Source: a virus. Taken from it: a stretch of DNA of 64,000 nt. Under the pieces are notes generated by a model, which worked only from the letters and a program-made list of their open reading frames with translations, had not been told where the DNA came from and did not search any database. The stretch spans positions 24,360 to 88,359 of the IMG/VR virus record IMGVR_UViG_3300049811_000251. One strand, 5' to 3'. The position numbers were made by a program, and so were the translations under genes. Below, piece by piece: positions 35,962 through 51,094 of this stretch. Each line of letters opens with the position of its first letter. Position 1 is the stretch's first letter.

Positions 35962-35975
35962 CTCCTGATGGCTAT

Positions 35976-36003
35976 ATTATGCCATCTTTTTAAGACTTGT
36001 CAA
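35976..36003 (-). promoter_or_regulatory. Sigma70-like promoter for protease/capsid
   Basis: TTGACA-N16-CATAAT with TG at extended -10. Confidence 0.6.
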
Positions 36004-37894: not shown

Positions 37895-39585
37895 CCTACG
37901 TAAACCTCGCCAACAGTGGACTCGGCTAAAAGATGTGCCGCAAGCATATCATAAACATCTGCGTGTCTTTGATGATCTTGTCTATCAGCTCCCTTAGTCC
38001 ATTCGTATTTTAAGTTACCCTTAGCATCTTCGACAATCTCTCTTACGGGATTGCACATTTCTTCAACATACTTACCACTAAGTATGGCATTGTAATTTTC
38101 GGGTAAGATATTTCTTCCCATTCTTAATTGAGAGTATCCCCTATCCAAAGCCTCAGTTCTATCAATGGTTAAAATCCTATCATTCAAGTTGAATTTTCTA
38201 GTTCGGTCAGAACCTTCCCCACCATATCTACACAACCAAACATCACAAGGGGACTGTTCTTGAAAATCTTGAGCAAGCATTAACTCAGGAGCAGCGTCTA
38301 TTACTACTTTTTCAACGTTATATGCTTGAATAAGCTCGTAAACTTCTGAAAAGTTTTGAGACTTGACCTTTCCAATATAAACGCATTTACGAAACCCTGA
38401 TCCCAAAACTTCCGATATTCTAATGTCTAAGATAGCACCAACGTCTATACCCATAGAGCACGGACCCGGAGAACCGTGCTCATAAACATGAGCACTATTT
38501 GGATTGATGATAAACTTATAACCCTTCCTACTGCAACGCTCCAAAAGAGTATCTGTAACTCTGTTACCCGCGGCGTTGTAAGGAAGACCTAAATAACTAT
38601 TGAAAAACTGCTTCATCAAACCGGGGTCATCCAAAGCACCCCTAAACTTAGACCACAATTCTTGAATACTGTTAAGAGGAGAGCATAAAAGAGAAATATG
38701 ATAACCTTCTATAGAAGAATCAGGATTTTCTGGCCTCCACTCCCCCTTAACTGAAGTTCTTTCCAACTCTCCTCCACAATGCGGACAAATTAACCTAATA
38801 TCTCTACGAATACCAGTTTTCCATTCTGTATCTCTTAAAACGTAATCTACTATATTCCCACTTCCATCTACTACTTCTTTAACTACTGTAGCAAACCAAT
38901 CAACTTTTGAATAAATACCGCACAACTTACAAGGAACCCACCACTCTCGTTGATCTGATTTCAGATAATACTTATGAATACCATTATTCTTAATAGTTGG
39001 ATTGCCTAAATACCTCTTATACTGATACCTACTAGCTCTTAATCTATCTAACGCAAACTCGACGTTATCAGGATCACACTGGTCAACTTCTTCAACATAC
39101 AAAATATCCGCAGGAAACTCCTTAAAGTCAGCGAGAACATTGGACCCAACGTACTTAACTACGCCTCTACCAAAAGACTTTAAGGCAACGGAGTCAAAGA
39201 ATCCGTTGCCTATAATCTTTTTGTATTCGGGAACTTGCTCTACGCAACGATTAACTCTATTTTGAACAAACGTAGTCCTCATTTCAAACTTGGGTAAAAC
39301 AAAGAATACGCTTAAGCCAGAGTTAGCTGCTGCAAAGTGATCGCAGATAGCCCACTCACTTTTCAGTGATTGAACTGATCCCATTAAAACTATTTCAAAG
39401 GCTACACTATTGTATAAATCCTTGATGTGCGGAAAACGCACAAAATCCATCTTTTCTCCGCGAGTATTGATATGATGCTTAGTAGCAAAATCTATACGAG
39501 TCTCCCGCATCTCCAGCATCTTAAGCATCGCCATTAAGCGATTACTTTCGACGCCTTCCAATGGATTGGAGTTTTTGTCGCTCAC
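37891..39585 (-). CDS. terL: Terminase large subunit (lambda gpA-like)
   Basis: LYVEEVD Walker B, LGNPT, SDQREWWVPC..C, CPHCG, GIDVG nuclease motif, DHQRHADVY. Confidence 0.92.
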   Translation of the reverse strand: MSDKNSNPLEGVESNRLMAMLKMLEMRETRIDFATKHHINTRGEKMDFVRFPHIKDLYNSVAFEIVLMGSVQSLKSEWAICDHFAAANSGLSVFFVLPKFEMRTTFVQNRVNRCVEQVPEYKKIIGNGFFDSVALKSFGRGVVKYVGSNVLADFKEFPADILYVEEVDQCDPDNVEFALDRLRASRYQYKRYLGNPTIKNNGIHKYYLKSDQREWWVPCKLCGIYSKVDWFATVVKEVVDGSGNIVDYVLRDTEWKTGIRRDIRLICPHCGGELERTSVKGEWRPENPDSSIEGYHISLLCSPLNSIQELWSKFRGALDDPGLMKQFFNSYLGLPYNAAGNRVTDTLLERCSRKGYKFIINPNSAHVYEHGSPGPCSMGIDVGAILDIRISEVLGSGFRKCVYIGKVKSQNFSEVYELIQAYNVEKVVIDAAPELMLAQDFQEQSPCDVWLCRYGGEGSDRTRKFNLNDRILTIDRTEALDRGYSQLRMGRNILPENYNAILSGKYVEEMCNPVREIVEDAKGNLKYEWTKGADRQDHQRHADVYDMLAAHLLAESTVGEVYVG

Positions 39586-40253
39586 AGTAAAACCTGCCGC
39601 TTCAATCGTGTCATTATTTCAGAAATAAGTTCTTCTTGACTCTTCTCGGACAGATTTACTCTCGAATCTTCATCATCCTTCAACCTTCTATGGTCGTTAA
39701 GAGACAGATCGAGTTTCTCGGGTTCCTTAGGAATAGCACCTATATCTGTAAGCAACTTAATTTTCATTTCTCTAATTTTTATGGCACTAGCCAAAAACTT
39801 AGCCTTAGCACCTTTCAAAACTTTAATTTCTTCTATGTTAGCTTCTACTACCGCTCCTGTTTTGCTATCAAAAGTTTTACTTTCTTTAGAAAGTTGATTT
39901 ATCTCATACAGACACACAGTTTCTAAGTTATCTAACATCATAAGTTGTTCCGCTAACAACTCAGACGCAGACTCTTTAATAAAATGCTCGTTAAACTCTT
40001 GCTTTAGCTTAGTGAACCAATTGTAAATAGTAGCTTCTGTTACTCCAAAAACTGTAGAAATACTACTAACTGGCAATCCGTCACAACGCATCTTCCAAGC
40101 TCTTGCTCTCTTACCTTCATCCGGCAAGGCTTGAAGAGTACGCTTAGCTTTTTCTTCCTCAGTTAGTGGAATCAAATTAGAAGCTCCCGCGTTAGCGGAA
40201 GCTTCTTGTTTATCAGCCCTCAGTTTTTCTATAACTGAAACAAGACTGCTCAT
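39582..40253 (-). CDS. terS: Terminase small subunit (HTH)
   Basis: RAWKMRCDGLPVSSISTVFGVTEATIYNW HTH plus coiled coil; directly upstream of TerL. Confidence 0.7.
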   Translation of the reverse strand: MSSLVSVIEKLRADKQEASANAGASNLIPLTEEEKAKRTLQALPDEGKRARAWKMRCDGLPVSSISTVFGVTEATIYNWFTKLKQEFNEHFIKESASELLAEQLMMLDNLETVCLYEINQLSKESKTFDSKTGAVVEANIEEIKVLKGAKAKFLASAIKIREMKIKLLTDIGAIPKEPEKLDLSLNDHRRLKDDEDSRVNLSEKSQEELISEIMTRLKRQVLL

Positions 40254-40272: not shown

Positions 40273-40300
40273 ATTATACGCTATTTTTAAGCCTTGTCAA
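40273..40300 (-). promoter_or_regulatory. Sigma70-type promoter for terminase
   Basis: TTGACA-N16-TATAAT. Confidence 0.65.
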
Positions 40301-41067
40301 TCTCCCAAATCATTTTCTAATGAATGTAGGTGCTTACTTAAAGCTGGACCTACTATCTCATTAACATCCATTCCTGATTGTTGTAAGAAGTCTATCATTT
40401 CCTTTACTACTTTAGCCGTCCTTTTATCGCACAAAACTACGCAATTAGTGGACCCTTTGTAAACAAAGTGTAAATAACTTTGATCTACAGTAGCAGAGTC
40501 TCGCAAGATGTTATTGATAATATCTGTAATACCTTCTACGGCTTCCTTAGGCTTGTTTGCCTCTTCTTTCAAACCGTCAAGAAAGCTCTTATCCTTTTTA
40601 GTAGTTTCTTTAATCAAATACCTATTCATTTCATTAGAGTCGTTGAAACCAAATACTGTTGGATCAACGTCTAATGAAGGGTCTAAGTCTTTAACAATAG
40701 CCGTAAACTTAACTCGATCCAACTCTCCGTGGATAATGTTATCTCTAACTGTTTTAATCTTTTGATTTCTAACATCCTCGTGAGGATACACAACTGCTGG
40801 AATCTCAGTAAACCCGAGAAGAACAGCAGCACGATGACGGTGCTCACCTGCCCAAATTAAGTAATGAGGACAATCTTTATCCCACTCATCGTCCCACTCT
40901 TCTTTGGGAATAACGTACACTTTAATGGGGTCAGTAAAACCCTCTTCTTGAATTTTGTTTACCAACGCTGAAAACTTGTTGGAATCCATTACATTAGGAT
41001 TCCACTTGTTAGGATGACACTGATCTACGGGAAGTAAAACGGGGGCTTGAATCATTAGCTTCTCCAA
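40297..41067 (-). CDS. ParB/Srx N-terminal domain protein
   Basis: HPNKWNPNVM, IQEEGFTDPI, AGEHRHRAA (GxHR motif), DNIIHG. Confidence 0.88.
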   Translation of the reverse strand: MEKLMIQAPVLLPVDQCHPNKWNPNVMDSNKFSALVNKIQEEGFTDPIKVYVIPKEEWDDEWDKDCPHYLIWAGEHRHRAAVLLGFTEIPAVVYPHEDVRNQKIKTVRDNIIHGELDRVKFTAIVKDLDPSLDVDPTVFGFNDSNEMNRYLIKETTKKDKSFLDGLKEEANKPKEAVEGITDIINNILRDSATVDQSYLHFVYKGSTNCVVLCDKRTAKVVKEMIDFLQQSGMDVNEIVGPALSKHLHSLENDLGD

Positions 41068-41792
41068 TACTCAAGAGGAATTTGACTTCTAAAAGTAGTC
41101 CATCCTTTAAGAGGACCACAATAAGAAGCTGGAGTTAAAGAGGGAGTGCAGACGTGCTCTAAGTGTACCCAATCTTTTCTAGTTACTAAGTCAGAATATG
41201 ATTTAGTGCTATATGATTTTAAGTCTCTGCCAAACTGTACGCATCTAGACGCAGATAACTTTTTAACGTAGTCTAATCCAAGATTTAATTCATCCTTACT
41301 TATGAAGGGTAAGTGCCAGTGACCCGGCTGAATAAGCTCTGGTATAGACTCGTGTAAAACTGCGTTTATAGTATTAGCTAACAGTACAGCATGGTATTCT
41401 TCTATATTCTTGATAATCGAAATAAAATGTTGCCACTCAGTAGCCGTCATCAAAACAGTTACATACTGAAAAGGTTGAAGTAATACTCTCGTAAGTCTTT
41501 CAGAAGTTCCAATTGATTGGAGTTGATTACAGCATTCTAAAACAGCTTTGTAAGCATCACTCCAAATTTTACATGCTTTAACAGGTTCTGAAATATCGTC
41601 CCCACCATCCGTAGCTTTGAACTTTAGTGGAACAAATAATCCCGCTTCGACTCCTTGGGATTTAACAGTACGCACCCTATCTCTATGTAAAAGTACGTGA
41701 GAATGTATTATTCTGGGATAAGTTAATCTCATAGTGCATAAACGCACAGAAGATTCTGAAACAGAATCCTTTATCATTTCAACTTGAATCAC
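41055..41792 (-). CDS. Divergent ThyX (flavin-dependent thymidylate synthase)-like protein
   Basis: Phage ThyX scaffold (LTYPRIIH, RVLLQPF, TATEW.HF, S.SRC, LEHVCTP), but RHRxxSxxxxSxR is altered to LHRDRVRTVKSQG. Confidence 0.7.
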   Translation of the reverse strand: MIQVEMIKDSVSESSVRLCTMRLTYPRIIHSHVLLHRDRVRTVKSQGVEAGLFVPLKFKATDGGDDISEPVKACKIWSDAYKAVLECCNQLQSIGTSERLTRVLLQPFQYVTVLMTATEWQHFISIIKNIEEYHAVLLANTINAVLHESIPELIQPGHWHLPFISKDELNLGLDYVKKLSASRCVQFGRDLKSYSTKSYSDLVTRKDWVHLEHVCTPSLTPASYCGPLKGWTTFRSQIPLEYWRS

Positions 41793-43159
41793 GATGCTTT
41801 CTTTCTAAATAGATGTTTAGAGGTAACTAACTCATCACAAAACTTTCTTAACCAAAACACTAAATTACGTCGATTACTTGTAATTCCGTATTGAGGCAAC
41901 GCAGCATCAAACTCCATGTTTTCTAAAACTTTCGCAGCTTTTACAAACTCACTTAAACTAAACGTTGAAGGCAACTCATCCAAAACTTCCCTCAATCTAG
42001 GTTCCCAATCCTTAAACGTTCCATAAGAACCTTCAATTGACTTAGAGGCATAAGAGAGGATTCTAGTCAAAGCATACTCTATATCGTGTTTTTCAACATA
42101 CTTTTCACTAAAAGGTTTCACCATTTCTTGTGCTGCGTTATAATTATGATAGCAATACTCCAACATTTTTAACATCTCAGAACGAGAAGAGTACATAAAA
42201 GGATATTCTTTGCCAACTAATTCTATTGCCCAAGTCTTTTCTGGTAAAATAACAGGATTACCAGTGGCAATCTTCTCAGACCAGCCAAAAGAAAAGCCTT
42301 CATCCACGCTACAACTTAAAAATAGATGAGACTTGCATAAGAGTTCAACATAACCTTCGTAAGGAAGAGGTTCCAAGAACTCAACGTTAGTTAGGTGAGA
42401 TGTTACTTCAACCTGAGCCTCAGTAACACCCAATTTAATAGCTTTAGCTTGAGAATTTGGATGACTTAATACAAAAGTCTTGTAGGTAGATAACACTTCC
42501 TCCCATCTTTTGTTAGGATTAAAACGCCCTGCGAATGTAAGAGTAAACTTGTCAAATTTTTGAACGGATTGTACAACCGATTGGATTTTCTTAAGAGGAA
42601 CTCCCGCAGACTGAACTAAGCACGAAGATCGTGCCTTAGCTACAGCTAACGGACTTAAAAACTTCTTTGACATATTCAAAGCAAAATCACGCTCTCTACT
42701 TGTTAAAAATATAACTGGAAGTGTAGCGTACGCAGAAGCTCTTAATATATTTTCATAGTCCGACTCTGATTCTATTGTGCTAGTTACCCAACTGTCTAAA
42801 ACTACAACAGGAACTTTAACTCCAGGACCAGCATAAAGCATCTTTTGTAAATTAACCGCCGCTGTACTTCTAGATGTTAAAACAAAATCTACGAAGTTCT
42901 TAGACCCTAAAGGTGCAAAATTTTCTATTATGCAGGTATCAACGTGAGCTTTTCCTAAATTATAATGAAACCAACTTCGTGTTCTGTAATACTGTAAATT
43001 AGGTAACTTAAAGTCTTCTGGAATAACAGCTAAGTCTGGCACGGCCATTATACAATAATGCTCTTTCCATTGTTTAGCTATTTGAAAAAACGTAATAAAC
43101 TCAGATTCTCTAAATACTTCTTGCTTAGTACAAATAAGAGGCGTCATCAAAATACGCAT
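41789..43159 (-). CDS. GT-B fold glycosyltransferase
   Basis: LTFAGRFNPNKR, YVELLCKSHLFLSCSVDEGFSFGWSE...G.P. Confidence 0.82.
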   Translation of the reverse strand: MRILMTPLICTKQEVFRESEFITFFQIAKQWKEHYCIMAVPDLAVIPEDFKLPNLQYYRTRSWFHYNLGKAHVDTCIIENFAPLGSKNFVDFVLTSRSTAAVNLQKMLYAGPGVKVPVVVLDSWVTSTIESESDYENILRASAYATLPVIFLTSRERDFALNMSKKFLSPLAVAKARSSCLVQSAGVPLKKIQSVVQSVQKFDKFTLTFAGRFNPNKRWEEVLSTYKTFVLSHPNSQAKAIKLGVTEAQVEVTSHLTNVEFLEPLPYEGYVELLCKSHLFLSCSVDEGFSFGWSEKIATGNPVILPEKTWAIELVGKEYPFMYSSRSEMLKMLEYCYHNYNAAQEMVKPFSEKYVEKHDIEYALTRILSYASKSIEGSYGTFKDWEPRLREVLDELPSTFSLSEFVKAAKVLENMEFDAALPQYGITSNRRNLVFWLRKFCDELVTSKHLFRKKAS

Positions 43160-44494
43160 TCAACCACCTACGTAGCTAAGAAGATGATTTCCACCTTTAG
43201 ATTCCTGCAACTTCAAATACTCGTCCACTACCCAATCAGGTAAATTCCATTCTTTTTTTCTGGTTATTGAGAAGTGGGCATCCCCCACACACTCATCAAA
43301 AGATTGGTTACTGGTATCTATAGGTACAGACCAAGCACTAATAATATAACCATCAAAATCAACTTTCTTACAAAACTCCAGAGTTTCTTCATACTCCTTT
43401 TCAGAAATAGCACCTAAAAACAAATAAGCACTGACTTTTATACCGTGATTTCTAATTAAATCTACAGCTTTTCGTATATCATTTCTTCCTTGAGTTTTCT
43501 TAACACTAGACCCAAAATCCTCGCCCACATTTTCTACACCTATCTTCAAATTAGTAAGTTTTAGCCTAGAGAGAGGCTTCAAAACTTTTTCTCCGAATTT
43601 CAATACCAACTCGCACCTAGCTTCTCCAACGAAAGTACAATTAAAGTTAAACGCACTAGATGCTTCGTAAGCATCTGCTAATTCATTCAATTTTTTTGGA
43701 TTCCTTGTTAGAATTTGATCTGTATAATACAAACGTTTATACCCTAACCCTACTTTATAAGTAATATCTTCTATAATTTTATTTATAGGACACTCTTCAA
43801 ATTTATTTGACGCTACCGTATTATAGCAAAACTTACAAGGAAAAGAGCACCCACGAGAAGATTGAATATAACTTAAGTCAACCTTGTGTCCAGGATTTTC
43901 TTTGTATTGATAAAAAGAACTTCCTCTAATAGTCCAATCAATTGGACCAACATCAATCACTGTGTCACAAAGCTTCTTAGTCACTAAATTTCGCACAACT
44001 TCTGAAGTTTTATGGTTAGGTCCATTTTTTATAGTTAAACTTACCTCGGTTTGTAATTGAGGAAAAACTTGAAAATAAGTACCTATCCCAAATAAAGGAA
44101 TCTTACTTTTACTGCGAAGTAGCTTAGCTAAGGATTTAGCTATATGAGGATTATCCATCCCGACACTAGACATGAAAGTATCTCCTGACATTATTCCTAT
44201 AACGTCAGGTTTATACGCAAGAACTTCTTCAACTAACTCATGTAATATTGAATTATTTACTCCTTTAACTACGTTATCCTTAAACATCTCAGAGTTATTT
44301 ACTAAAGTTCTCCAAGTAAAATGACCCTTAGAGTTAGAGGAGTCTCCATTAACCTCTAAGGTATCTATGGAGTTTTCAGACAAAACTGATCTTAAATACC
44401 TAATTTCTGAGAACTCTTTATTGTTGTGAGAACCTGCATATCTAAAATAAGGAGGTTTTACTAAAACGCACAGCATCTTACTTCCCCATAGCAA
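43160..44494 (-). CDS. Cobalamin-binding (class B) radical SAM enzyme
   Basis: KPDVIGI B12-binding-like N-domain; SSRGCSFPCKFC (CxxxCxxC); YYTDQIL, GVEN. Confidence 0.88.
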   Translation of the reverse strand: MLWGSKMLCVLVKPPYFRYAGSHNNKEFSEIRYLRSVLSENSIDTLEVNGDSSNSKGHFTWRTLVNNSEMFKDNVVKGVNNSILHELVEEVLAYKPDVIGIMSGDTFMSSVGMDNPHIAKSLAKLLRSKSKIPLFGIGTYFQVFPQLQTEVSLTIKNGPNHKTSEVVRNLVTKKLCDTVIDVGPIDWTIRGSSFYQYKENPGHKVDLSYIQSSRGCSFPCKFCYNTVASNKFEECPINKIIEDITYKVGLGYKRLYYTDQILTRNPKKLNELADAYEASSAFNFNCTFVGEARCELVLKFGEKVLKPLSRLKLTNLKIGVENVGEDFGSSVKKTQGRNDIRKAVDLIRNHGIKVSAYLFLGAISEKEYEETLEFCKKVDFDGYIISAWSVPIDTSNQSFDECVGDAHFSITRKKEWNLPDWVVDEYLKLQESKGGNHLLSYVGG

Positions 44495-45092
44495 AAGTGG
44501 TGACGTGGTTTCTTAAATGGTTACTAATATGATAATAAGTTGGATTAAAGTTTCGCAATACTTGAAATAATTCTTCATTAGTTATAACTCGTAAATTTTC
44601 TTTATCAGGTTCTAGGGTATACTCGTTAAACAGCGTTAATACGGTAACTTGATTACAACTTTCCCACATCTTACTTAACATACCTATAAATTGATCCCAC
44701 CAATTAAAATCTTGTTGACTTATAAGACCTATGCCTACTACAGCATCCTTAGGGTCCATAGAAAATTGATTATTCTCAACTAACTCAAAAGATATATCAT
44801 CTTTAGAGTTACAGTATCTTTCTGAAGCAATTTCTATAAATTTACTCATAATGTCCACACCAGTATAACTAATACCCGGAAATTCCGTAAATAAGGGTAA
44901 AACAAAGTCACCTACTCCGCACCCCACATCCAAGACACTCTTAATAGGAAATCTCTTAAGTACATATAAAACTTCTCTAAAAGAAGAAGTTTGATTTCTT
45001 CTAGACTTATAAAGGTTTCCATCTATGGAACCATTTTTAACTATCTTTGAGTACTTATCGTGCTCAGCCTTAAACATTTCAAGTTTCTCCAT
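44478..45092 (-). CDS. Class I SAM-dependent methyltransferase
   Basis: SVLDVGCGVGD, YTGVDI. Confidence 0.9.
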   Translation of the reverse strand: MEKLEMFKAEHDKYSKIVKNGSIDGNLYKSRRNQTSSFREVLYVLKRFPIKSVLDVGCGVGDFVLPLFTEFPGISYTGVDIMSKFIEIASERYCNSKDDISFELVENNQFSMDPKDAVVGIGLISQQDFNWWDQFIGMLSKMWESCNQVTVLTLFNEYTLEPDKENLRVITNEELFQVLRNFNPTYYHISNHLRNHVTTFAMGK

Positions 45093-46251
45093 AACAAGAG
45101 TACTTTACCACCTTTATGACGTCTTTTAAGTTGTTTCTGCTCATTTTAAGATGTAAAGGTAAACAAACGTGCTTCTTAGAAAATTTTTCTACCCCATCAA
45201 GAGGATTACGAAAACCTTGATACTCTATAAACACTGGTTGAGAATAAATAGGTGTTTCGTACACACTAGCAGGTAGTTTTATAGAAAACTCTGAACACAG
45301 TTTCTTAAAGGTATTAACTGATTTAATATTTCTAAAGTAAATGGGATACTTGTAGTACGAAGTTCCACTTAAATCAAACGTAGTTACTCCATCACACTTT
45401 AGCTCTTTATCATAAACTGAAGCTAATCGAGATAATTTCTCAATAACTTCGTCAAAACAATCTAAGTAAGCTAATCCAATCAACGCTAAAAACTCAGGTA
45501 ATCTGGCAGAATGTCCAATCGAATGGATTAAAGAGTCAAAAGGATCACACTTTCCTTGATTACCAATCATCGCTAAAGAACTTAATATGTTTGAAGTCTT
45601 TTGATTACGAACAGTTCTATCAGGAGATACAATAGCTCCACCCTCAACAGTAGATAAGGGCTTACTAGCATGAAAAGAGAAAACTGTAAAATCGGCCCAA
45701 GTTCCAGATTTAACACCTTTACTACTATAACATCCAAAAGAATGAGCAGCGTCCTCCACTAAAACACAATTATACTTATCCGCTAACTTAACCAACTCAT
45801 CCGTGTTTTCTGGAATTATTCCCGCTATAGTTGGAATATGTAATATAGAAGGACTATGAACTTTTAATATACCTTCAATATGATTTAAGTCTGGCTGCAT
45901 AGTATTGGGGTCTATGTCATATAAATGTATCTGCAATCTATTTCTAAGAAAATAGAACAAAGGAGATATGTAAGTATTGCCTGAAGTTAAAATACTCGAA
46001 GGTTCTAAATACTCCCACAGTAACCAGTGGGCTGTAGTATTACTTTGAAATAACTCACAATTTACAGCTACATCAGGTCCACAAGTTTCTACTATCAACC
46101 CCTTAAATTCCAGGTATCCTTTACCTCTGATAACTTTATCTACTTGAAGTGCGTTTGACAACGCAAGTATAGCCTTAGATCGTCCCTCAGCGGACAATCT
46201 AGGTGAAGACGCGGATACACGCCCTTCGACAAAAAACTTTGGAGGAATCAC
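45079..46251 (-). CDS. DegT/DnrJ/EryC1/StrS PLP-dependent sugar aminotransferase
   Basis: LVEDAAHSFG, FSFHASKPLSTVEGGAI (Schiff-base Lys), LCLPLH-type C-terminus. Confidence 0.93.
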   Translation of the reverse strand: MIPPKFFVEGRVSASSPRLSAEGRSKAILALSNALQVDKVIRGKGYLEFKGLIVETCGPDVAVNCELFQSNTTAHWLLWEYLEPSSILTSGNTYISPLFYFLRNRLQIHLYDIDPNTMQPDLNHIEGILKVHSPSILHIPTIAGIIPENTDELVKLADKYNCVLVEDAAHSFGCYSSKGVKSGTWADFTVFSFHASKPLSTVEGGAIVSPDRTVRNQKTSNILSSLAMIGNQGKCDPFDSLIHSIGHSARLPEFLALIGLAYLDCFDEVIEKLSRLASVYDKELKCDGVTTFDLSGTSYYKYPIYFRNIKSVNTFKKLCSEFSIKLPASVYETPIYSQPVFIEYQGFRNPLDGVEKFSKKHVCLPLHLKMSRNNLKDVIKVVKYSCYGET

Positions 46252-47171
46252 GTTGAAATCCTGTAATCAAGGGTTTGCTGATATAGTTTAGTAATCTCTA
46301 TCAAATCTTGAATGACTACATCAAAATTCTCAGCAGGTCTAAATAACAATCTATTCATCTTATTGTAATTTACCTCATAATCTCTACAATCTTTATCAGG
46401 AACACCTTCAACTTCTTCTATTTTACAATTAGTATGCTTTTGAATCATTAAAGCTAATTCACGCTTAGTCATATTTCCTTGAACGCAACCGATGTTTATA
46501 ACCTCTCCTTTTAAGTTTCCTAGATTAAGTAAAGCTTGTACGTAAACTTCGCACGCATTTTCTAACGAAAAAAAGGTTCTTCTATCGTCTCCTTTGTACA
46601 AAACTATTCTACCAGTGGTTACGGCACTCCAAATCAAACTATGAGGTAGTAAGTCAAACCTCATAAAAGGACTTACTCCCATTAACGTAGCAAATCTTAA
46701 ATGAACAGCCGTATCCTGAAGTTCTCGCTCTGCTTGCTGTTTAGTAAATCCGTAGTAAGATTGTGGATTTAATTTACTGTCTTCCGAACAAATATCATCT
46801 ATCTTGCCATAAACTGAACCAGTGGACGCATTAACCACTAGCACGTCCTTTCTTTTTGCTAAAGAGGCGATAGCTGCTGATCCACGTACATTAACGTTAT
46901 ATGCGGTAGTCTCGTCTTCCGCACAACGAGGATAACCTACTACAGCCGCTAAATGAACAATGGCATCGAAATCTTCTTTCTCCAATACATCAACACAGTG
47001 AGTAGCTACGTTTCCCGTTATAAGTTTGGCACCTTTGTAAGCAAGCCAAAGGGCCTTAGAAATACCGTAAGAGAAGGTATCAAAAATGATAACCTCGAAT
47101 CCCGCATCAAGAAGGTAGTCAGCTAGAGCACTACCTACATAACCAGCCCCACCTGTAATTAAAACACGCAT
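46248..47171 (-). CDS. NAD-dependent NDP-sugar epimerase/dehydratase
   Basis: VLITGGAGYVG, VHLAA, STGSVYG, YGFTK. Confidence 0.92.
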   Translation of the reverse strand: MRVLITGGAGYVGSALADYLLDAGFEVIIFDTFSYGISKALWLAYKGAKLITGNVATHCVDVLEKEDFDAIVHLAAVVGYPRCAEDETTAYNVNVRGSAAIASLAKRKDVLVVNASTGSVYGKIDDICSEDSKLNPQSYYGFTKQQAERELQDTAVHLRFATLMGVSPFMRFDLLPHSLIWSAVTTGRIVLYKGDDRRTFFSLENACEVYVQALLNLGNLKGEVINIGCVQGNMTKRELALMIQKHTNCKIEEVEGVPDKDCRDYEVNYNKMNRLLFRPAENFDVVIQDLIEITKLYQQTLDYRIST

Positions 47172-47854
47172 TCTTTAACTCCTAAATCAAGAGTGGTCCC
47201 CAACTTCGTATCGAGATTGTACTTATGTAAGAAGTAGATATAAAAACTAACTTCTTGAGGAGTCCTATAAAATAAGTTTTCTCTTTTAGGGTTTCCAGGA
47301 GTATCAACTCTTCCTGGATATAAAAAAGATACCGTTATTTTACAGTTTCTATACTGTTCTTTTATAGAACGCAACCCGGCTTCCATAGCCGCCTTAGATA
47401 CGGCATACTCCGGGTAAGTGTTAGAACCTTTAGATAAGTAGGAAGACAGGTAAACTATCGAAACATCGCCGCCTTCACGTTTTCTAACAACTTGTTTAAG
47501 GAAGTCCAATTGATTGGAGCAGTTAATGCTAAAATGAGTATTTAAGCTTTCGCTAAAGGTGGGAATTTTCAGGTTTCTATCTATAAAACCGCAAGATAAA
47601 GTAATCTCAAGATTAGTCTCATTACAAACTAATTCATGTAAATCAATATACTGTTCTTTAGAAAAATCAGCTTCTACAAATTCACAAGCATACTGAGGAC
47701 GTGATCTACCAACTACGATAATATCTTTGAAAGCCGTGCTTTTCACCGGCTTAAACTTTGACGAAATGTAGGAATCGTAATAAGTAGGATCAATCAAATA
47801 CCTCAGATAAGCTAACCCTATTCCAGAAGAAGCACCTGTAATTATATGTTTCAT
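47159..47854 (-). CDS. Short-chain dehydrogenase/reductase
   Basis: IITGASSGIG, YAVSK, PGRVDT. Confidence 0.88.
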   Translation of the reverse strand: MKHIITGASSGIGLAYLRYLIDPTYYDSYISSKFKPVKSTAFKDIIVVGRSRPQYACEFVEADFSKEQYIDLHELVCNETNLEITLSCGFIDRNLKIPTFSESLNTHFSINCSNQLDFLKQVVRKREGGDVSIVYLSSYLSKGSNTYPEYAVSKAAMEAGLRSIKEQYRNCKITVSFLYPGRVDTPGNPKRENLFYRTPQEVSFYIYFLHKYNLDTKLGTTLDLGVKECVF

Positions 47855-48249
47855 ACTTCAACCTTTGTAATTGGAGCCTTACAATCATCCCACTTTTTAG
47901 TAAGTAGTGCAACTAAAGCACAGTCTTCTAGTGGTACTAAAGTATGAGCACACCCTGGAGGAAAGCAAACACACTCCCCAGGCCCTAACATCAAAAAGTC
48001 AGAATCTTCCCAAGCCTTACCTTCAGACAACTCAACGTAGATAACAGACCCTTTAACAACTAAAATATACTCAGTAAACTCTTCGTGAAAATGAAATCCT
48101 CGTTTACTGGTTTTATTTGTAACTATGTAATTAAATTCCAGTATAGCTTCTTTTGGAACATACGTAAATATCCCTCCTCTACCATCTAACACTGTGTTCA
48201 AATTAGAAGTAGGAACAACTTTGTACATCTTCATGTTAATCTGCTCCAC
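47851..48249 (-). CDS. Cupin sugar isomerase/epimerase (RmlC/FdtA-like)
   Basis: DGRG, KRGFHFH...E, PPGCAH. Confidence 0.8.
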   Translation of the reverse strand: MEQINMKMYKVVPTSNLNTVLDGRGGIFTYVPKEAILEFNYIVTNKTSKRGFHFHEEFTEYILVVKGSVIYVELSEGKAWEDSDFLMLGPGECVCFPPGCAHTLVPLEDCALVALLTKKWDDCKAPITKVEV

Positions 48250-49043
48250 TGATCTAGGATGTACAACGAACTCTGAAACAAGTTAATAGCAGGACATTCT
48301 ACCGAATTTGATCTATAGATAAAATTTTGAAAAACCGCCTCATAAATTGGCAAAGTAGTTCGAGAAAAGGGCCTATCAAAAACAACACCTTTTTCACAAT
48401 CTATAACTAGATTACTATACTCCAAATGATCGGACGCTGAACAAAACCAGATAGTCTTTCCAGTAGATACCCTAATTAACCCTTTATACCAATCTACCAT
48501 AGTAACTACTGGTACTCTATTGTCACTGTTATTTAATATACTAGCTGCGGCAACCATAGCCGGATAAACTCCAACTTCAAATATAATATCGTGTCGGCTA
48601 AACTTATTTTCAAACTTGTATAAAGCATAACCTACTGAGTTAATCTTTACTATATCATTCCAGTCAGCCGTGTAAAAAGGCTGAAAAACCATCCCTAACT
48701 TCACACCATTAGCTCTGGCAGCATTTTTTAGAGAAAGCAGTTGAGTATGATTAGTCACTAACGACTTTTCACACAATACGTTTTTCTTAGCATTCAGAAG
48801 TTCTATGCAATATTCGTAATGACTGTCTATAGTAGTACAAACATATACATCTGTAATTAACGAATCTTTAAGTAATTCCTGAAAACTAACAGGAGAAATA
48901 ACAGAGTCGCCTAGCTTAAAAGGAGTTACATCCCTAGATACGGGTAAATAAGAGTGACCTTGAAATACTTTGTGAATTTTTCTAACAAAATGACTAGACC
49001 TAGGAGAAAGCACAGCCCACTTGGTATCTAAAAAGTCAATCAT
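48231..49043 (-). CDS. Gfo/Idh/MocA-family oxidoreductase
   Basis: VYVCTTIDSH...KNVLCEKSL. Confidence 0.8.
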   Translation of the reverse strand: MIDFLDTKWAVLSPRSSHFVRKIHKVFQGHSYLPVSRDVTPFKLGDSVISPVSFQELLKDSLITDVYVCTTIDSHYEYCIELLNAKKNVLCEKSLVTNHTQLLSLKNAARANGVKLGMVFQPFYTADWNDIVKINSVGYALYKFENKFSRHDIIFEVGVYPAMVAAASILNNSDNRVPVVTMVDWYKGLIRVSTGKTIWFCSASDHLEYSNLVIDCEKGVVFDRPFSRTTLPIYEAVFQNFIYRSNSVECPAINLFQSSLYILDQWSRLT

Positions 49044-49654
49044 GTGGAGTCTCCAAGGTCCAACAGATTGGATCGACCTGAACTCTCAAACTCTACTACT
49101 AATTTCTTAACGTATTCCGAAATCTTTTCTGTAGTTCCCAATCTATTTAAGGTAGGAATCTCCAATACAGTTCCTTTTAAGGTAACTGGATATAATTCCC
49201 AATACTCTTGAACTACAGTCTTAACTAAACGATTTCCAATAAACTTGGAAAACGCAGACTTCTTAAAGTCTTCCTGAAAAGATGAAAATACTGCAAAACT
49301 AGACCACTTCAAAACCTTAAACTTGATTAGTTCAGACACAAAATGTAGAGGTTCCAAAACTTTTAACCTAATCTGCTCTGAAGCTTGGGCCGCCGGCCAC
49401 GACTTCGATCCTGTTCTATAAGGATCAGATAAATCCATAAAACCGTCAAATCTAGTCTTACTTTTTAAGCATTCCGAGATAAACCTGTATAAGGAACTAG
49501 GGTCTTCGTAAGACCCTATTTTTATCTTTGATGCGTTTTTACAAGTTGGAACTCTACCATTCCCCAATAAGTGAACATCTACTCCAGCTTCTGTTAGAAG
49601 AGAGTAAACAGCGTTGACTACGCTAGAAGGAGTATAAGTAATCAAGACTACCAT
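49040..49654 (-). CDS. Degenerate SDR-like Rossmann protein
   Basis: VVLIT...VVNAVYSLL..AGVDV start and SKFIG near the expected YxxxK position; catalytic motifs eroded. Confidence 0.45.
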   Translation of the reverse strand: MVVLITYTPSSVVNAVYSLLTEAGVDVHLLGNGRVPTCKNASKIKIGSYEDPSSLYRFISECLKSKTRFDGFMDLSDPYRTGSKSWPAAQASEQIRLKVLEPLHFVSELIKFKVLKWSSFAVFSSFQEDFKKSAFSKFIGNRLVKTVVQEYWELYPVTLKGTVLEIPTLNRLGTTEKISEYVKKLVVEFESSGRSNLLDLGDST

Positions 49655-50616
49655 TAAAGACCGTCCTTACTAAAAAACGCAAGTTTCAATTCTTGGATAG
49701 CGTCAGGATTTTTAACGACTATCCACTGTCGAATTTTATTGAGTTTAGGTATAACCTCATTTACGAAATACTGCTCAACCGCTGGAGAGGTCAACTCACT
49801 TAAATAATATCCACTATTTAGTTTAATTTGTGACTTTTGCCATCTCCAGAAAACACCTTTGTCATAAGGAGCATAATTACTTTTAAGCATACCTTCATGC
49901 AGAAACACTCCCCAACCCATTACTTCAGAGTCAAGCTCAATAGGCCCTTTATTGTTCCTAAGAAAGATATTCAAACACGTTTTTCCTAAAAACGTGTGAG
50001 TGTCTAAGGCTGACGAGATAAGAAAATCGTCTAGAAAATAGTTATCAAGTCCAACCGATTGGATTGGAGATTCTTGATAATTGTCTTTCGTAAAGAAGAA
50101 GGGGCTACCAATTCCGAACTTGGAATGGTCCCACGAAAGACTTCTTTGAGCTAATTCGATAGTCCAATCGTAATTTAGCTCACCTATTCCGTAATCCCAT
50201 ATATCGTAGGCTAGTAAATCTCTAGAATCATACCTTTCTTTGAGATCAACTAAACTAGTATACTTAGTAGGGGAAAACGCAAACTTAACTCGTTCAGCGG
50301 TGATTCCGTACTTACTTAAAAGAATCTCAGAAATTACTTGAGAATCGTTAGTTTTTTGTCCCTCTGACATACTTACAATGAGAGGAATTAACTTACTGAA
50401 GTCTCTATAACCGTCTCTGTATAAGTAGAACAGTTTAAGAGCTTCAAAATTTCGTCCACAATCTTCGTATAAAATTGTCCAAAGTCTAGAGAAAAGTCTG
50501 TAATTATCCTGACTCCAGGCAACTCTAGCCCACTTTATAGCGTGATCGGTTAGACCACGCCTTACGCACTTTTGTAGTGCGGATACTCCAGTGTAATACA
50601 AATTCTTATTCATCAA
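49654..50616 (-). CDS. RarA/MgsA C-terminal-like helical protein
   Basis: SALQKCVRRG...A...A, RLWTILYED, ALDTHT..GK; no Walker A seen. Confidence 0.5.
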   Translation of the reverse strand: MMNKNLYYTGVSALQKCVRRGLTDHAIKWARVAWSQDNYRLFSRLWTILYEDCGRNFEALKLFYLYRDGYRDFSKLIPLIVSMSEGQKTNDSQVISEILLSKYGITAERVKFAFSPTKYTSLVDLKERYDSRDLLAYDIWDYGIGELNYDWTIELAQRSLSWDHSKFGIGSPFFFTKDNYQESPIQSVGLDNYFLDDFLISSALDTHTFLGKTCLNIFLRNNKGPIELDSEVMGWGVFLHEGMLKSNYAPYDKGVFWRWQKSQIKLNSGYYLSELTSPAVEQYFVNEVIPKLNKIRQWIVVKNPDAIQELKLAFFSKDGL

Positions 50617-50633
50617 ATCCTCCCAGTCCCACC

Positions 50634-50662
50634 ATTATACCAAGTATTTTCTAGAAAGTCAA
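50634..50662 (-). promoter_or_regulatory. Sigma70-type promoter heading the sugar-modification cluster
   Basis: TTGACT-N17-TATAAT with TG extended -10. Confidence 0.75.
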
Positions 50663-50665
50663 TTT

Positions 50666-51094
50666 CTAGATTATGTTTTTGGTAGGTAGGTACAGCGAAG
50701 ATTTTGGAGACTCGCTTGGACTTTCGGATAAACAAATTTCTTGCAATTCTTCCTTAAGCTTAAGTACATCAGACTCCTCTAAAGGCATCTTAGCGAGAAG
50801 AATTTTCAGAAGAAGTTTTGTTATTTCGAGTTCTCCCTTAAGCTCCACGAGTTTCTTGTAGAAAGAGTCAAATAACTCCGCTAATGAGTTAGGCTCGATT
50901 AAAGGTATTCCAATCGGTTGGACTGAGAATACCTTTAATGGAGGATTGTTAGCAGGAGCTTTTTGGTAAGCCTCTACTACTGCGTTAATTAAACCTAGGA
51001 CTTCTTTATCAGGCGTCGTGACCGTCGAATGGATGGGTATTGTCTTCATTATCGACTTTCTCATTCTTTTCTTGGGAATTGGCAAACGATTCAA
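50666..51094 (-). CDS. Hypothetical protein
   Basis: Operon-packed ORF. Confidence 0.55.
   Translation of the reverse strand: MNRLPIPKKRMRKSIMKTIPIHSTVTTPDKEVLGLINAVVEAYQKAPANNPPLKVFSVQPIGIPLIEPNSLAELFDSFYKKLVELKGELEITKLLLKILLAKMPLEESDVLKLKEELQEICLSESPSESPKSSLYLPTKNII

What the first reader, a model, noticed from the sequence alone, without database searches (positions are those of the whole stretch)
41055..50616. Ten-gene amino-sugar biosynthesis and transfer operon next to the terminase: candidate novel DNA (or virion) hypermodification system
Seen, under one sigma70 promoter (50634): RarA-C-like, SDR-like, Gfo/Idh/MocA oxidoreductase, cupin isomerase, SDR, NDP-sugar dehydratase/epimerase, DegT aminotransferase, SAM methyltransferase, B12 radical SAM, GT-B, ThyX-like, ParB-N. 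Established: dehydratase, FdtA-type cupin, DegT and N-methyltransferase make 3-amino-dideoxy sugars (mycaminose/Fuc3N-type routes), and T-even GT-B enzymes glucosylate hmC in DNA. Inference: the phage makes a methylated amino-deoxysugar and attaches it to a modified pyrimidine (given ThyX/ParB/terminase linkage) or to virion proteins. This is more like an antibiotic-sugar pathway than known phage glucosylation or arabinosylation.
Basis: partly seen in the sequence, partly recalled or inferred. Interest (0 to 1): 0.82.

Follow-up and report, generated by a model that had tools for sequence, protein, structure and literature searches.

The report
Phage amino-sugar, glycosyltransferase, ParB operon
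An uncultured ~102-kb phage carries, just before its DNA-packaging genes, twelve tightly coupled genes that build a tailored amino sugar and hand it to a transferase that always travels with a ParB-like helper; the same module occurs in many phages, some cultured, but whether the sugar goes onto phage DNA or onto something else is still unproven.

Summary
Window 50616-40297 (minus strand) holds 12 genes with no intergenic gaps. They are bracketed by the two best sigma70-like sites of the region.

- **Corrections:**
  - The extended SDR lacks the 4,6-dehydratase Asp-Glu pair.
  - FdtA identity and B12 dependence are unverified.
  - The ThyX-like protein is degenerate and unique to this phage.
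- **Accessory island:** a syntenic relative (TerL 62% identical) lacks the whole block.
- **Conserved module:** other phages carry [RarA-C-like]-SDR-DegT-[tailoring]-GT-B(1-3)-ParB-terS-terL with shuffled tailoring sets. They include cultured Rhizobium, Rhodobacter, Vibrio, Agrobacterium, Stenotrophomonas and Arthrobacter phages.
- **Core pair:** the GT-B plus ParB pair is the invariant core.
- **For a DNA target:** ParB-dependent phage DNA-modifying enzymes are a published precedent, and the module sits just before the packaging genes.
- **Against a DNA target:**
  - No ThyA or TET/JBP primer was found in 16 genomes.
  - Restriction-site avoidance is extreme.
- **Odds on the target:** DNA about 0.45, phage protein about 0.25, other about 0.3.

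The scan has flagged this module type before on other DNA (e1-5327723, e1-3507246).

The parts
50634..50662 (-). Promoter-like site (TTGACT-17-TATAAT with TG) in the gap upstream of the first gene
   Evidence: This is a consensus match only. It is the second-best site in 12.8 kb.
49654..50616 (-). 320-aa RarA/MgsA-C-terminal-like helical protein with a second helical domain. It is a conserved member of the amino-sugar islands.
   Evidence: AF2 model pLDDT 91.4. Residues 1-110 match 3BGE, 2R9G and 8G28 with probability 0.95-0.98. AFDB full-length hits are all uncharacterised. Homologues at 25-37% identity lie in related islands.
49040..49654 (-). 204-aa SDR-fold protein without a glycine-rich or YxxxK motif, so probably non-canonical or inactive
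   Evidence: Atlas structure TM 0.74-0.78 to SDRs. Motif scan. No homologue in the relatives compared.
48231..49043 (-). 270-aa short Gfo/Idh/MocA-like oxidoreductase with an EKS motif at 92-94
   Evidence: PF01408, 41.8 bits. Homologue in L018.
47851..48249 (-). 132-aa cupin with a full metal-type signature (H53, H55, E60, H102). The role is sugar isomerase or epimerase, or something else.
   Evidence: 52% identical to the L018 copy. FdtA E 0.0027 only.
47159..47854 (-). 231-aa classical SDR (TGASSGIG, Y150xxxK), a ketoreductase candidate
46248..47171 (-). 307-aa extended SDR, an NDP-sugar C4 oxidoreductase or epimerase. It has GGAGYVG and Y140xxxK, and no dehydratase Asp-Glu pair.
   Evidence: PF01370, 110 bits. 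Best solved relative 6VO6/6VO8 at E 1.9e-40, against about 1e-14 for all others. Motifs.
45079..46251 (-). 390-aa DegT/DnrJ/EryC1 PLP aminotransferase with the Schiff-base lysine (SFHASK, K197)
   Evidence: PF01041, 138 bits. PseC-type is the best NCBIfam match but is below its cut-off. PDB 2FN6, 3BN1, 2PO3 and WbpE. Motif.
44478..45092 (-). 204-aa class I SAM methyltransferase (DVGCGVG). Likely N-methylation of the amino sugar.
   Evidence: Homologous methyltransferase between DegT/rSAM and GT in L019. By annotation only, a methyltransferase gene ('Erm' in Stenotrophomonas DLP3) sits after the aminotransferase in RcZahn and DLP3; our methyltransferase gave no tblastn match to either.
43160..44494 (-). 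444-aa radical SAM enzyme (C216xxxC220xxC223) with a roughly 200-aa N-terminal domain. It is class-B-like or AprD4-like.
   Evidence: PF04055. Weak NCBIfam hits to B12-rSAM families and AprD4. PDB 6FD2 AprD4 at 5e-5. Homologues at 36-37% in related islands.
41789..43159 (-). 456-aa GT-B (GT4-type, EX7E at 287-295) glycosyltransferase, the invariant transfer enzyme
   Evidence: phrog_30253 E 2e-15. Pfam GT1-clan hits are below cut-off. The family has 1-3 paralogues per island. Motif. Homologues in cultured phages.
41055..41792 (-). 245-aa degenerate ThyX-family protein. The ThyX motif reads LHRDRVRTVKSQG and the SSRAIP segment is deleted.
   Evidence: No PF02511 match in the genome scan. Absent from this position in all relatives.
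40297..41067 (-). 256-aa acidic ParB/Srx-type NTP-binding protein (GEHRHRAA at 74-81, pI 5.2), the obligate neighbour of the GT
   Evidence: PF02195. phrog_26387 E 3e-25. The nucleotide-binding domain (NBD) of the model matches KorB, Noc and MxParB at E 1e-7. Co-occurrence.
40273..40300 (-). Perfect sigma70-like site (TTGACA-16-TATAAT) in front of terS. It marks the 3' boundary of the operon.
37891..40253 (-). terS-like (HTH_23) and GpA-type terL. These are context, and are always immediately downstream of the module.
   Evidence: synteny

Best explanation
The 12 genes form one late, translationally coupled 'glyco-island'. It is one variant of a widespread phage module that always lies directly upstream of terS/terL.

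**Shown**
- The island encodes soluble enzymes that can turn a host NDP-sugar into a tailored amino sugar.
- An extended SDR has the cofactor and Tyr-Lys motifs but no dehydratase pair, so it fits C4 oxidation or epimerisation.
- A DegT aminotransferase carries an intact PLP lysine.
- The remaining tailoring genes are a SAM methyltransferase, a radical SAM enzyme, a Gfo-like oxidoreductase, a metal cupin and a classical SDR.
- The island also encodes a retaining-type GT4/GT-B transferase.
- This transferase family is almost always adjacent to one specific acidic ParB/Srx-type NTP-binding protein.

**Inferred**
- The sugar is a 4-amino (possibly N-methylated, C-modified or deoxygenated) hexose or heptose.
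- The ParB-like protein acts as the partner that brings the transferase to its substrate.
- The substrate is most likely the phage's own DNA shortly before packaging, modified partially or at limited sites rather than globally. This is by analogy with ParB-dependent phage thymine dioxygenases.
- The acceptor atom is unknown, because neither known base-priming enzyme type is present.
- The degenerate ThyX-like protein is an add-on of this phage only. It may be a decaying thymidylate synthase gene, or a flavoprotein that replaces the Flavin_Reduct partner found next to the radical SAM gene in two relatives.
For: **Gene content and motifs:**

**Tight coupling and flanking promoter-like sites:**

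**No transmembrane segments:** none of the 12 operon products has one.

**Island status:** the syntenic relative G001 (TerL 62%, MCP 73%) lacks 40297-51094 entirely.

**Same module at the same place in metagenomic phages**
- It carries shuffled tailoring genes and 1-3 GT paralogues.

**Same module in cultured phages**
- RHph_Y1_11, RcZahn, KarBoss, PG28, Stenotrophomonas DLP3, RcDurkin, JP1 and Arthrobacter phages.

**GT-ParB pairing**
- The ParB subfamily is found in only 22 of 50,697 phage records. Each one inspected has a GT-B just upstream, often with overlapping reading frames.

**Fold of the ParB-like protein:** its nucleotide-binding domain has the KorB/Noc/MxParB fold.

**Literature**
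- ParB-like proteins lacking a DNA-binding domain are obligate activators of a subclass of phage DNA thymine dioxygenases. GTs (31%), ParBs (27%) and terminases (19%) are the commonest neighbours of phage 5mYOX genes (bioRxiv 10.1101/2025.08.14.668559).
- Phage DNA GTs are ordinary GT-B enzymes fed by phage sugar-nucleotide genes (PMC13326640; bioRxiv 10.1101/2023.12.21.572611).
- Oligosaccharide-modified thymidine phages carry sugar-modification blocks that include a GlcNAc deacetylase (PMC12686479).
- Stenotrophomonas DLP3, which has the module, is not cut by SmaI or ClaI, although 26 and 8 sites lie in 42 kb of its genome (PMC7326821).

**RarA-C-like component:** the conserved 320-aa protein belongs to a DNA-replication-associated fold.
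Against: **No known priming enzyme**
- There is no Thymidylat_synt and no Tet_JBP match in this genome, in G001, or in 14 other module-bearing records.
- There is no C5-MTase or TGT match in G000 or G001.
- ThyX is found in only 4 of 14 records.

**Restriction-site avoidance**
- Palindromic 6-mers are extremely avoided. O/E is 0.37 here, 0.47 in the island-less relative and 0.32-0.76 in module-bearing loci.
- This is the signature of DNA that is exposed to type II restriction, not of globally hypermodified DNA.

**The DLP3 data are weaker than they look**
- In the 42 kb of its genome examined (43%), 10 of the 15 enzymes have no site and 3 have one.
- Simple methylation could explain the resistance to SmaI and ClaI.

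**Nothing points specifically to DNA binding**
- The GT family is not basic (pI 5.8-8.2) and ParB is acidic.
- The phage has four further glycosyltransferases elsewhere, two of them conserved in the island-less relative, so protein or glycan targets clearly exist in this lineage.

No read-level data could be obtained.
Confidence: 0.45

Rival explanations
1. Virion or other phage-protein glycosylation. The island makes the donor sugar, and the GT-B decorates capsid, tail or packaging proteins late in infection, as reported for some actinophages. ParB adjacency would then reflect packaging-module linkage rather than DNA chemistry.
For: - The island has a late position next to the structural genes.
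- The phage has four more GTs. A GT4 and a GT-A sit next to the putative fibre gene and are conserved in relative G001.
- Between-phage diversification of the sugar set is typical of surface glycans.
- There is strong restriction-site avoidance and no base-priming enzyme.
- An earlier agent reached this reading for a similar island (e1-3507246).
Against: - It does not explain why the GT is coupled to one ParB/Srx subfamily across Actinobacteria and Proteobacteria phages.
- It does not explain the conserved RarA-C-like protein.
- No markedly Ser/Thr-rich structural protein was found (best structural windows 40-43% S+T).
- Free-amine sugars (PIG-L deacetylase variants) have no obvious role on virions.
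Confidence: 0.25
2. Host-directed or small-molecule product. The GT4 plus deacetylase or aminotransferase logic matches mycothiol, bacillithiol and aminoglycoside pathways. The product could therefore be a soluble glycoside, or a modification of a host envelope precursor (superinfection exclusion, receptor masking).
For: - GT4 plus PIG-L pairs in several variants (a BshB1-like annotation in PG28, and PIG-L in Stenotrophomonas DLP3, RcZahn and L019) follow the 'GlcNAc transfer then de-N-acetylation' logic.
- The radical SAM enzyme's best solved relative is the aminoglycoside enzyme AprD4.
- The DLP3 authors suggested LPS modification (PMC7326821).
Against: - None of the 12 operon products has a predicted membrane segment. 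The families matched include no flippase, polymerase, polyprenyl-phosphate transferase or Gtr-type gene.
- Most carriers look virulent or are large siphophages, with the module in the late region.
- ParB and terminase linkage is unexplained.
Confidence: 0.15
3. The ThyX-like protein makes a modified pyrimidine nucleotide that is built into DNA, and the GT attaches a 3-amino-3,6-dideoxy (mycaminose/Fuc3N-type) N-methyl sugar to it.
For: - The ThyX-family gene is translationally coupled between GT and ParB.
- Thymidylate-synthase homologues are the usual primers of phage DNA glycosylation (PMC13326640).
Against: - Those primers are ThyA homologues, not ThyX.
- This ThyX-like protein lost Ser and Arg of the RHRxxSxxxxSxR motif, about 10 residues after it, and the KNQKGMQ and RVSY segments.
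- It is absent from every related island.
- The SDR lacks the 4,6-dehydratase pair needed for 6-deoxy sugars.
- FdtA similarity is below its cut-off.
- No dNMP kinase or dCTPase was found among the proteins scanned.
Confidence: 0.07

Closest known systems
ParB-dependent phage 5mYOX (TET/JBP) thymine-dioxygenase hypermodification clusters (O'Toole et al., bioRxiv 10.1101/2025.08.14.668559; GT survey in bioRxiv 10.1101/2023.12.21.572611)
   Same: - A ParB/Srx-type NTP-binding protein sits next to a DNA-modification-type enzyme.
- The cluster has GT(s), sugar epimerase-type genes, methyltransferases and the terminase as neighbours.
- The ParB nucleotide-binding domain has MxParB as a top structural relative.
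   Different: - No TET/JBP gene was found here or in 14 related records.
- The enzyme coupled to ParB is the GT-B itself.
- A full amino-sugar pathway is attached.
Arabinosyl-5-hydroxycytosine clusters of RB69 and Acinetobacter phage DLP3, and hexosyl-5hoC of Rhizobium phage RL38J1 (PMC13326640)
   Same: - The phage encodes its own NDP-sugar supply.
- It also encodes up to three sequential BshA/MshA-like GT-B enzymes.
- Relatives of our island also carry 2-3 GT paralogues.
   Different: - Those systems start from a ThyA-homologue 5hodCMP synthase, plus dCTPase and nucleotide kinases. None was found here.
- The sugars there are neutral.
Oligosaccharide-hypermodified thymidine of SP-15, YerA41 and Carin-5 (PMC12686479)
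   Same: A gene block for sugar-nucleotide modification, a GlcNAc-deacetylase-like enzyme and several GTs serves a DNA modification.
   Different: - Those blocks lie next to a special UDG-fused PolA and belong to jumbo-type myoviruses. Here the block lies next to terS/terL with ParB.
- PolA here is ordinary.
The uncharacterised module of Stenotrophomonas phages DLP3/DLP5 (Delepquintavirus), Rhodobacter RcZahn, Rhizobium RHph_Y1_11/TM16, Vibrio PG28/KarBoss (PMC7326821, PMC8601537; GenBank annotations)
   Same: - Homologous GT-B and ParB in all those compared, and DegT in all but the Arthrobacter phages. Only three (Stenotrophomonas DLP3, RHph_Y1_11, KarBoss) gave a partial N-terminal tblastn match to the C4 SDR.
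- The same order and the same position before terS/terL.
- Both DLP3 and DLP5 are reported as restriction-resistant.
   Different: - Those variants use PIG-L deacetylase and lack the radical SAM, Gfo-like, cupin and ThyX-like genes.
- Identities are only 21-27%.
Antibiotic and capsule sugar tailoring enzymes: AprD4 (6FD2), the gentamicin GenD2/GenS2/GenN/GenD1 logic, and the C. jejuni heptose C4 dehydrogenase Cj1427. The last two, and the identity of 6VO6 as Cj1427, are from my memory.
   Same: The combination of Gfo-type oxidoreductase, DegT aminotransferase, SAM methyltransferase and B12-like radical SAM enzyme, and the C4-oxidising SDR without dehydration.
   Different: - Similarities are remote, except to 6VO6 (E 2e-40).
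- There is no aminocyclitol or polyketide context.
- The setting is a phage late operon.
Mycobacteriophage virion glycosylation (Freeman et al. 2023; from memory, not read here)
   Same: Phage-encoded GTs and methyltransferases decorate virion proteins.
   Different: - As far as I recall, there is no ParB partner, no amino-sugar pathway and no terminase linkage.
- This was not testable here.

Membership tests
ParB-dependent 5mYOX DNA hypermodification cluster | A TET/JBP-type Fe/2OG dioxygenase gene | tested here: not met
   PF12851 gave no match at E<=1 in G000 or G001, and none at E<=0.1 in 14 module-bearing records. PHROG and Pfam scans of the unknown ORFs found no oxygenase. Very divergent 5mYOX cannot be excluded.
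ParB-dependent 5mYOX DNA hypermodification cluster | A ParB/Srx-type partner with a nucleotide-binding domain (NBD) and a C-terminal domain (CTD) but no classical HTH DNA-binding domain | tested here: inconclusive
   The NBD is confident and matches KorB, Noc and MxParB. GEHRHRAA and NPN motifs are present. Residues 154-256 of the model have pLDDT below 55, so the absence of an HTH is not shown.
ThyA-primed phage DNA glycosylation (T4, RB69 type) | A thymidylate-synthase (ThyA) homologue that makes 5hm- or 5ho-pyrimidine nucleotides | tested here: not met
   PF00303 gave no match in G000, nor in G001 and 14 related records.
ThyX (flavin-dependent thymidylate synthase) | Pfam Thy1 score above cut-off and the RHRxxSxxxxSxR motif | tested here: not met
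   No PF02511 match. The motif reads LHRDRVRTVKSQG with a deletion after it. Homology to viral Thy1 proteins is nevertheless real (E 6e-24 to 1e-10).
DegT/DnrJ/EryC1 sugar aminotransferase | Family score above cut-off and the PLP-binding lysine | tested here: met
   138.3 bits against a cut-off of 19.8. SFHASK with K197.
NDP-sugar 4,6-dehydratase | An extended SDR with an Asp-Glu acid/base pair before YxxxK | tested here: not met
   GGAGYVG and Y140xxxK are present, but the segment reads STGSVYG (116-122). The best relative is a non-dehydrating enzyme entry, 6VO6.
FdtA/QdtA 3,4-ketoisomerase | PF05523 above cut-off | tested here: not met
   17.9 bits against a cut-off of 23. The protein has a classical metal-cupin signature instead.
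Class B (cobalamin-dependent) radical SAM | CxxxCxxC plus an N-terminal B12-binding domain | tested here: inconclusive
   The cluster motif is present at 216-223. There are only weak NCBIfam matches to B12-rSAM families, and an equal match to the B12-independent AprD4. No PF02310 hit.
GT4-type GT-B glycosyltransferase | GT1-clan C-terminal domain and an EX7E motif | tested here: met
   phrog_30253 E 2e-15. Pfam GT1 families are just below cut-off. EX7E lies at 287-295 and is conserved in 8 of 9 family members.
Host O-antigen or surface-glycan conversion cassette | Membrane-embedded flippase, polymerase, Gtr-type or polyprenyl-phosphate transferase | tested here: not met
   No hydrophobic 19-residue window above 1.62 in any cassette protein. 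No such Pfam families.
Phage virion glycosylation system | Glycan found on capsid or tail proteins | not testable with these tools
   Only indirect evidence: four further GTs in the genome, and no strongly Ser/Thr-rich structural protein.

The most novel reading that the evidence does not exclude
A ParB/Srx-type NTP-dependent partner loads a GT4-type glycosyltransferase onto replicated phage DNA. The enzyme attaches a cationic, tailored amino sugar without any ThyA- or TET-made hydroxyl handle. That would be a new acceptor chemistry for DNA glycosylation. It would be present in a large, partly cultured group of siphophages, with the sugar diversified from phage to phage.
Probability: 0.2. Interest if true: 0.9.

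Novelty: new variant of a known kind. Interest (0 to 1): 0.62.

Why it matters
If the target is DNA, this would add amino sugars to the short list of natural DNA decorations. These could be N-methylated and modified by radical SAM chemistry. It would also show that ParB-like clamps serve glycosyltransferases as well as dioxygenases, and it would pose a chemical puzzle: what is glycosylated when no hydroxylated base is made?

If the target is protein, this is a widespread, hypervariable virion-glycosylation system outside the actinophages.

Either way, the question is directly testable. The homologous module sits in cultured phages of Rhodobacter, Rhizobium, Agrobacterium, Vibrio, Stenotrophomonas and Arthrobacter. 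The enzymes (a C4-oxidising SDR, DegT, an AprD4-like radical SAM enzyme) are also a source of unusual sugar chemistry.

Tried and rejected
1. **DNA megablast of the cassette against 50,697 phage records:** no match.
2. **Single-sequence scans of IMG/VR with the GT and the ThyX-like protein:** nothing. Relatives came only through protein homologue searches and a ParB alignment.
3. **PDB sequence searches for the 320-, 245- and 204-aa proteins:** nothing useful.
4. **A link between the genome-wide palindrome lattice and ParB or the island**
   - G000 has 63 copies of TCCAA-N4-TTGGA.
   - L019, L018 and L023 carry related motifs. The island-less G001 has only 9 copies of another palindrome, which looked promising.
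   - L021/L022 carry ParB and the island without any lattice.
   - The link was therefore dropped as unsupported.
5. **Stenotrophomonas DLP3 restriction resistance as proof of hypermodification:** downgraded after counting sites. 10 of the 15 enzymes have no site in the 42 kb examined.
6. **ThyX as a universal partner:** rejected, present in 4 of 14 records.
7. **A search for a hidden oxygenase among unknown ORFs by Pfam and PHROGs:** none found.
8. **Ser/Thr-rich acceptor protein:** none convincing.
9. **Public sequencing runs holding the cassette:** none listed, so no read-level test of modification was possible.
10. **The identity of PDB 6VO6 as Cj1427:** this could not be verified in the held papers and rests on my memory.
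11. **GT and ParB charge as a hint of DNA binding:** uninformative.

Full report
**Setting**

The window is bases 24360-88359 of a 102,290-bp IMG/VR virus record (41.6% GC). The two ends overlap by about 130 nt, so the record is probably complete. Nearly all genes lie on the minus strand. Read in the direction of transcription, the order is:
- small early genes
- ligase with a GT2 and an epimerase
- the lysis region
- the cassette
- terS, terL, portal, head and tail genes
- three glycosyltransferases
- replication genes (helicase loader, DnaB, primase, PolA, RecA)

TerL is at most 24% identical to any cultured phage.

**Observation**

Twelve ORFs from 50616 down to 40297 overlap or abut at every junction. 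The only two gaps hold the two best sigma70-like matches of the region: 50662-50634 (11/12 with TG) and a perfect site at 40300-40273 in front of terS. Such sites are not enriched overall.

Pfam, NCBIfam and PHROG searches confirm the Gfo/Idh/MocA-like, cupin, classical SDR, extended SDR, DegT, SAM methyltransferase, radical SAM, GT-B, ParB_N, HTH_23 and GpA terminase assignments.

The three 'dark' proteins were resolved as follows.
- **320 aa:** the protein folds with pLDDT 91 into an all-helical structure. Its first 110 or so residues match the C-terminal domain of MgsA/RarA.
- **204 aa:** an SDR fold without cofactor or catalytic motifs.
- **245 aa:** a real but degenerate ThyX-family member.

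**Corrections of detail**
- **Extended SDR:** it has GGAGYVG and Y140xxxK. Where 4,6-dehydratases carry Asp-Glu it reads STGSVYG. Its outstanding solved relative is 6VO6/6VO8, at E 2e-40 against about 1e-14 for everything else. From memory, 6VO6 is the C. jejuni GDP-heptose C4 dehydrogenase Cj1427, but I could not verify this in the held papers. A 6-deoxy route is therefore not indicated.
- **Cupin:** it has a complete metal-cupin signature, and its FdtA score is below the cut-off.
- **Radical SAM enzyme:** it has CxxxCxxC at 216-223 and an N-terminal domain of about 200 residues. It matches B12-type families and the B12-independent diol dehydratase AprD4 equally weakly.
- **DegT:** it keeps the PLP lysine (SFHASK). 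Its nearest relatives are C4-type aminotransferases: PseC, perosamine synthase, DesI and ArnB.
- **GT:** it carries the GT4 EX7E motif.

**Comparative genomics: the island**

A syntenic relative, G001 (104.7 kb; TerL 62%, MCP 73%, collinear head, tail and replication genes), lacks all of the following:
- the whole block 40297-51094, ParB included
- the 452-aa/epimerase/GT2/ligase block
- the GT8

The cassette is thus an accessory island.

Homologues of the radical SAM enzyme and of the 320-aa protein led to other ~100-kb phages that carry an island at exactly this place.
- **JGI contig:** Gfo, cupin, 320-like, adh_short, Epimerase, DegT, rSAM, GT, ParB, terS, terL, portal.
- **L018:** the same set with a Flavin_Reduct gene before rSAM.
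- **L019/L020:** 320-like, PIG-L, methyltransferase, WbqC, two extra GT paralogues, DegT, Flavin_Reduct, rSAM, methyltransferase, GT, ParB, terS, terL.
- **L021/L022 and L023:** no rSAM, but two GT paralogues.

Clustering shows 1-3 paralogues of the GT family per island.

**Comparative genomics: cultured phages**

Cultured phages carry the module too:
- Rhizobium RHph_Y1_11/TM16
- Rhodobacter RcZahn and the RcF cluster
- Vibrio KarBoss and PG28
- Agrobacterium JP1
- Stenotrophomonas DLP3, DLP5 and Summit
- several Arthrobacter phages, reduced there to GT plus ParB

These were found.

The ParB subfamily occurs in only 22 of 50,697 phage records. Every record inspected has a GT-B immediately upstream, often with overlapping frames.

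A scan of IMG/VR with a ParB alignment gave 40 loci. Of about 14 informative full-length ones, 11 have GT-family genes in the cluster, with shuffled sets of the other enzymes.

The invariant core is therefore GT-B plus ParB-like in front of terS/terL. The usual amino-sugar core is the C4 SDR plus DegT, mostly with the RarA-C-like protein. Everything else is variable tailoring.

**The ThyX-like gene**

The ThyX-like gene is found in this position in our phage only. In the other phages the GT and ParB genes are directly coupled.
- Its relatives are ordinary viral ThyX genes in nucleotide-metabolism modules.
- In Stenotrophomonas DLP3 an intact ThyX lies just after terL. It is annotated 'hypothetical', while the gene annotated 'thymidylate synthase' carries a phosphatase CX5R motif.
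- Our copy lost Ser and Arg of the ThyX motif, and several conserved segments.
- ThyX is present in only 4 of 14 module-bearing records.

One idea worth testing follows from the relatives. Two rSAM-bearing relatives have a Flavin_Reduct gene beside the rSAM gene and ours has none. A degenerate flavoprotein could therefore serve as its reductant.

**What is the target?**

*For DNA*
- Published work shows that a subclass of phage DNA thymine dioxygenases is inactive without a ParB-like partner that lacks a DNA-binding domain. GTs, ParBs and terminases are the commonest neighbours of such genes.
- Phage DNA GTs are ordinary BshA/MshA-like GT-B enzymes fed by phage-encoded sugar-nucleotide genes, sometimes three in a row.
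- Sugar-modification blocks with a GlcNAc deacetylase accompany oligosaccharide-modified thymidine.
- Our ParB-like protein has the KorB/Noc/MxParB nucleotide-binding fold.
- The RarA-C-like fold is replication-associated.
- Expression just before packaging is the expected time for a post-replicative modification.
- Variants with PIG-L and DegT would give free-amine, cationic sugars, a recurrent theme in hypermodified phage DNA.

*Against DNA*
- Neither known primer of DNA glycosylation exists here or in 14 related records. There is no ThyA homologue and no TET/JBP.
- G000 and G001 also have no C5-MTase or TGT match.
- Palindromic hexamers are among the most strongly avoided words. O/E is 0.37 in G000: GTTAAC 0 observed against 40 expected, TTTAAA 3 against 58, and the tetramer GCGC 6 against 115.
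- Avoidance is just as strong in the island-less relative (0.47) and in module-bearing loci (0.32-0.76). This is what unprotected DNA under restriction pressure looks like.
- The attractive experimental datum is that Stenotrophomonas DLP3 and DLP5 DNA resist restriction, DLP3 resisting all 15 enzymes tried. It shrinks on inspection. In the 42 kb of DLP3 examined, ten of the enzymes have no site and three have one. Only SmaI (26 sites) and ClaI (8 sites) are informative, and methylation could explain both. If one modification explains both, it sits on C or G, not T.

My conclusion is that a global base replacement is unlikely. A partial or context-limited DNA modification remains the single most likely reading (about 0.45).

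**Rivals**

*Phage-protein glycosylation (about 0.25)* fits the late position, the glyco-diversification and the four further GTs of this phage. Two of those are conserved in G001. It leaves the ParB coupling unexplained.

*A host-envelope or small-molecule product (about 0.15)* fits the GT4 plus deacetylase logic. However, none of the operon products has a predicted membrane segment.

**Novelty**

The kinds of parts are known. The module as such is uncharacterised in the literature I could search.

This scan has flagged the same type before on other DNA (e1-5327723, e1-3507246), as well as GT-ParB pairs of other GT folds (e1-457524, e1-529586).

The present variant stands out for three things:
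- the richest tailoring set (rSAM, Gfo-like, cupin, two or three SDRs, methyltransferase)
- the inserted degenerate ThyX
- a clean island boundary against a syntenic relative

Noticed in passing
whole genome; e.g. window 1187-63755: There are 63 exact copies of TCCAA-N4-TTGGA in 102 kb (consensus TCCAAYYRRTTGGAG). The perfectly palindromic centre TCGA never occurs, which matches the total avoidance of ATCGAT. Relatives carry their own variants: (G)TGCAA-N4-TTGCA(C) in L019, L018, L017 and L023, and GTGAAMCCGGKTTCAC nine times in G001. L021/L022 have none.
   Followed up: partly
whole genome G000, G001 and related loci: Palindromic restriction-type words are extremely avoided. Mean 6-mer palindrome O/E is 0.37 in G000 and 0.47 in G001. 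GCGC occurs 6 times against 115 expected, and GTTAAC 0 against 40.
   Followed up: yes
window 58679-62715: A second sugar unit, absent from relative G001: a 452-aa unknown protein, a 337-aa UDP-hexose 4-epimerase-like SDR (4ZRM E 1e-38, WbpP/WbgU-like) and a 246-aa GT2. They lie next to an ATP-dependent DNA ligase.
   Followed up: partly
window 14379-19226: Three glycosyltransferases lie between the putative fibre gene and two unknown proteins that precede the helicase loader. The GT4 (593 aa) and the GT-A-like protein (476 aa) are conserved in G001 at 37-38%. The GT8 (464 aa) is not. The 89-aa ORF between them (16139-16408) is 60% identical to G001, among the best-conserved proteins of the genome. 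Pfam found no methyltransferase domain in these proteins.
   Followed up: partly
genome 17153-22412 (L014:17153-19654, L015:850-2412): A MoxR/CbbQ-type AAA+ ATPase (520 aa) and a VWA-domain protein (833 aa) form a pair. Both are conserved in G001.
   Followed up: no
genome 8396-9235 and 91436-92014: A Methyltransf_24 protein (279 aa) and a GNAT acetyltransferase (192 aa) lie outside the window. Both are possible further glycan-tailoring enzymes.
   Followed up: no
genome ends (1-200 and 102090-102290): The contig ends repeat about 130 nt, including a poly-G tract of different length (13 against 17 G). The record is probably a complete circular or terminally redundant genome, although IMG/VR calls it linear and CheckV estimates 78%.
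   Followed up: no
L030 (Stenotrophomonas phage DLP3, MT110073) 18768-19661 and 35757-36533: DLP3_107, annotated 'hypothetical' and lying right after terL, is an intact viral-type ThyX. DLP3_141, annotated 'thymidylate synthase', has a CX5R phosphatase motif and no similarity to ThyX.
   Followed up: partly
genome 9604-15664 (L014): Five tRNA genes (Thr-TGT, Val-TAC, Lys-TTT, Ser-TGA, Met-CAT) are interspersed with HNH endonuclease genes.
   Followed up: no
L031 (RcDurkin) 6624-7013 and L033 (JP1) 983-1399: In the minimal GT-ParB modules of the RcF-cluster and Agrobacterium phages, a small 'DprA-like DNA processing' protein sits immediately upstream of the GT.
   Followed up: no
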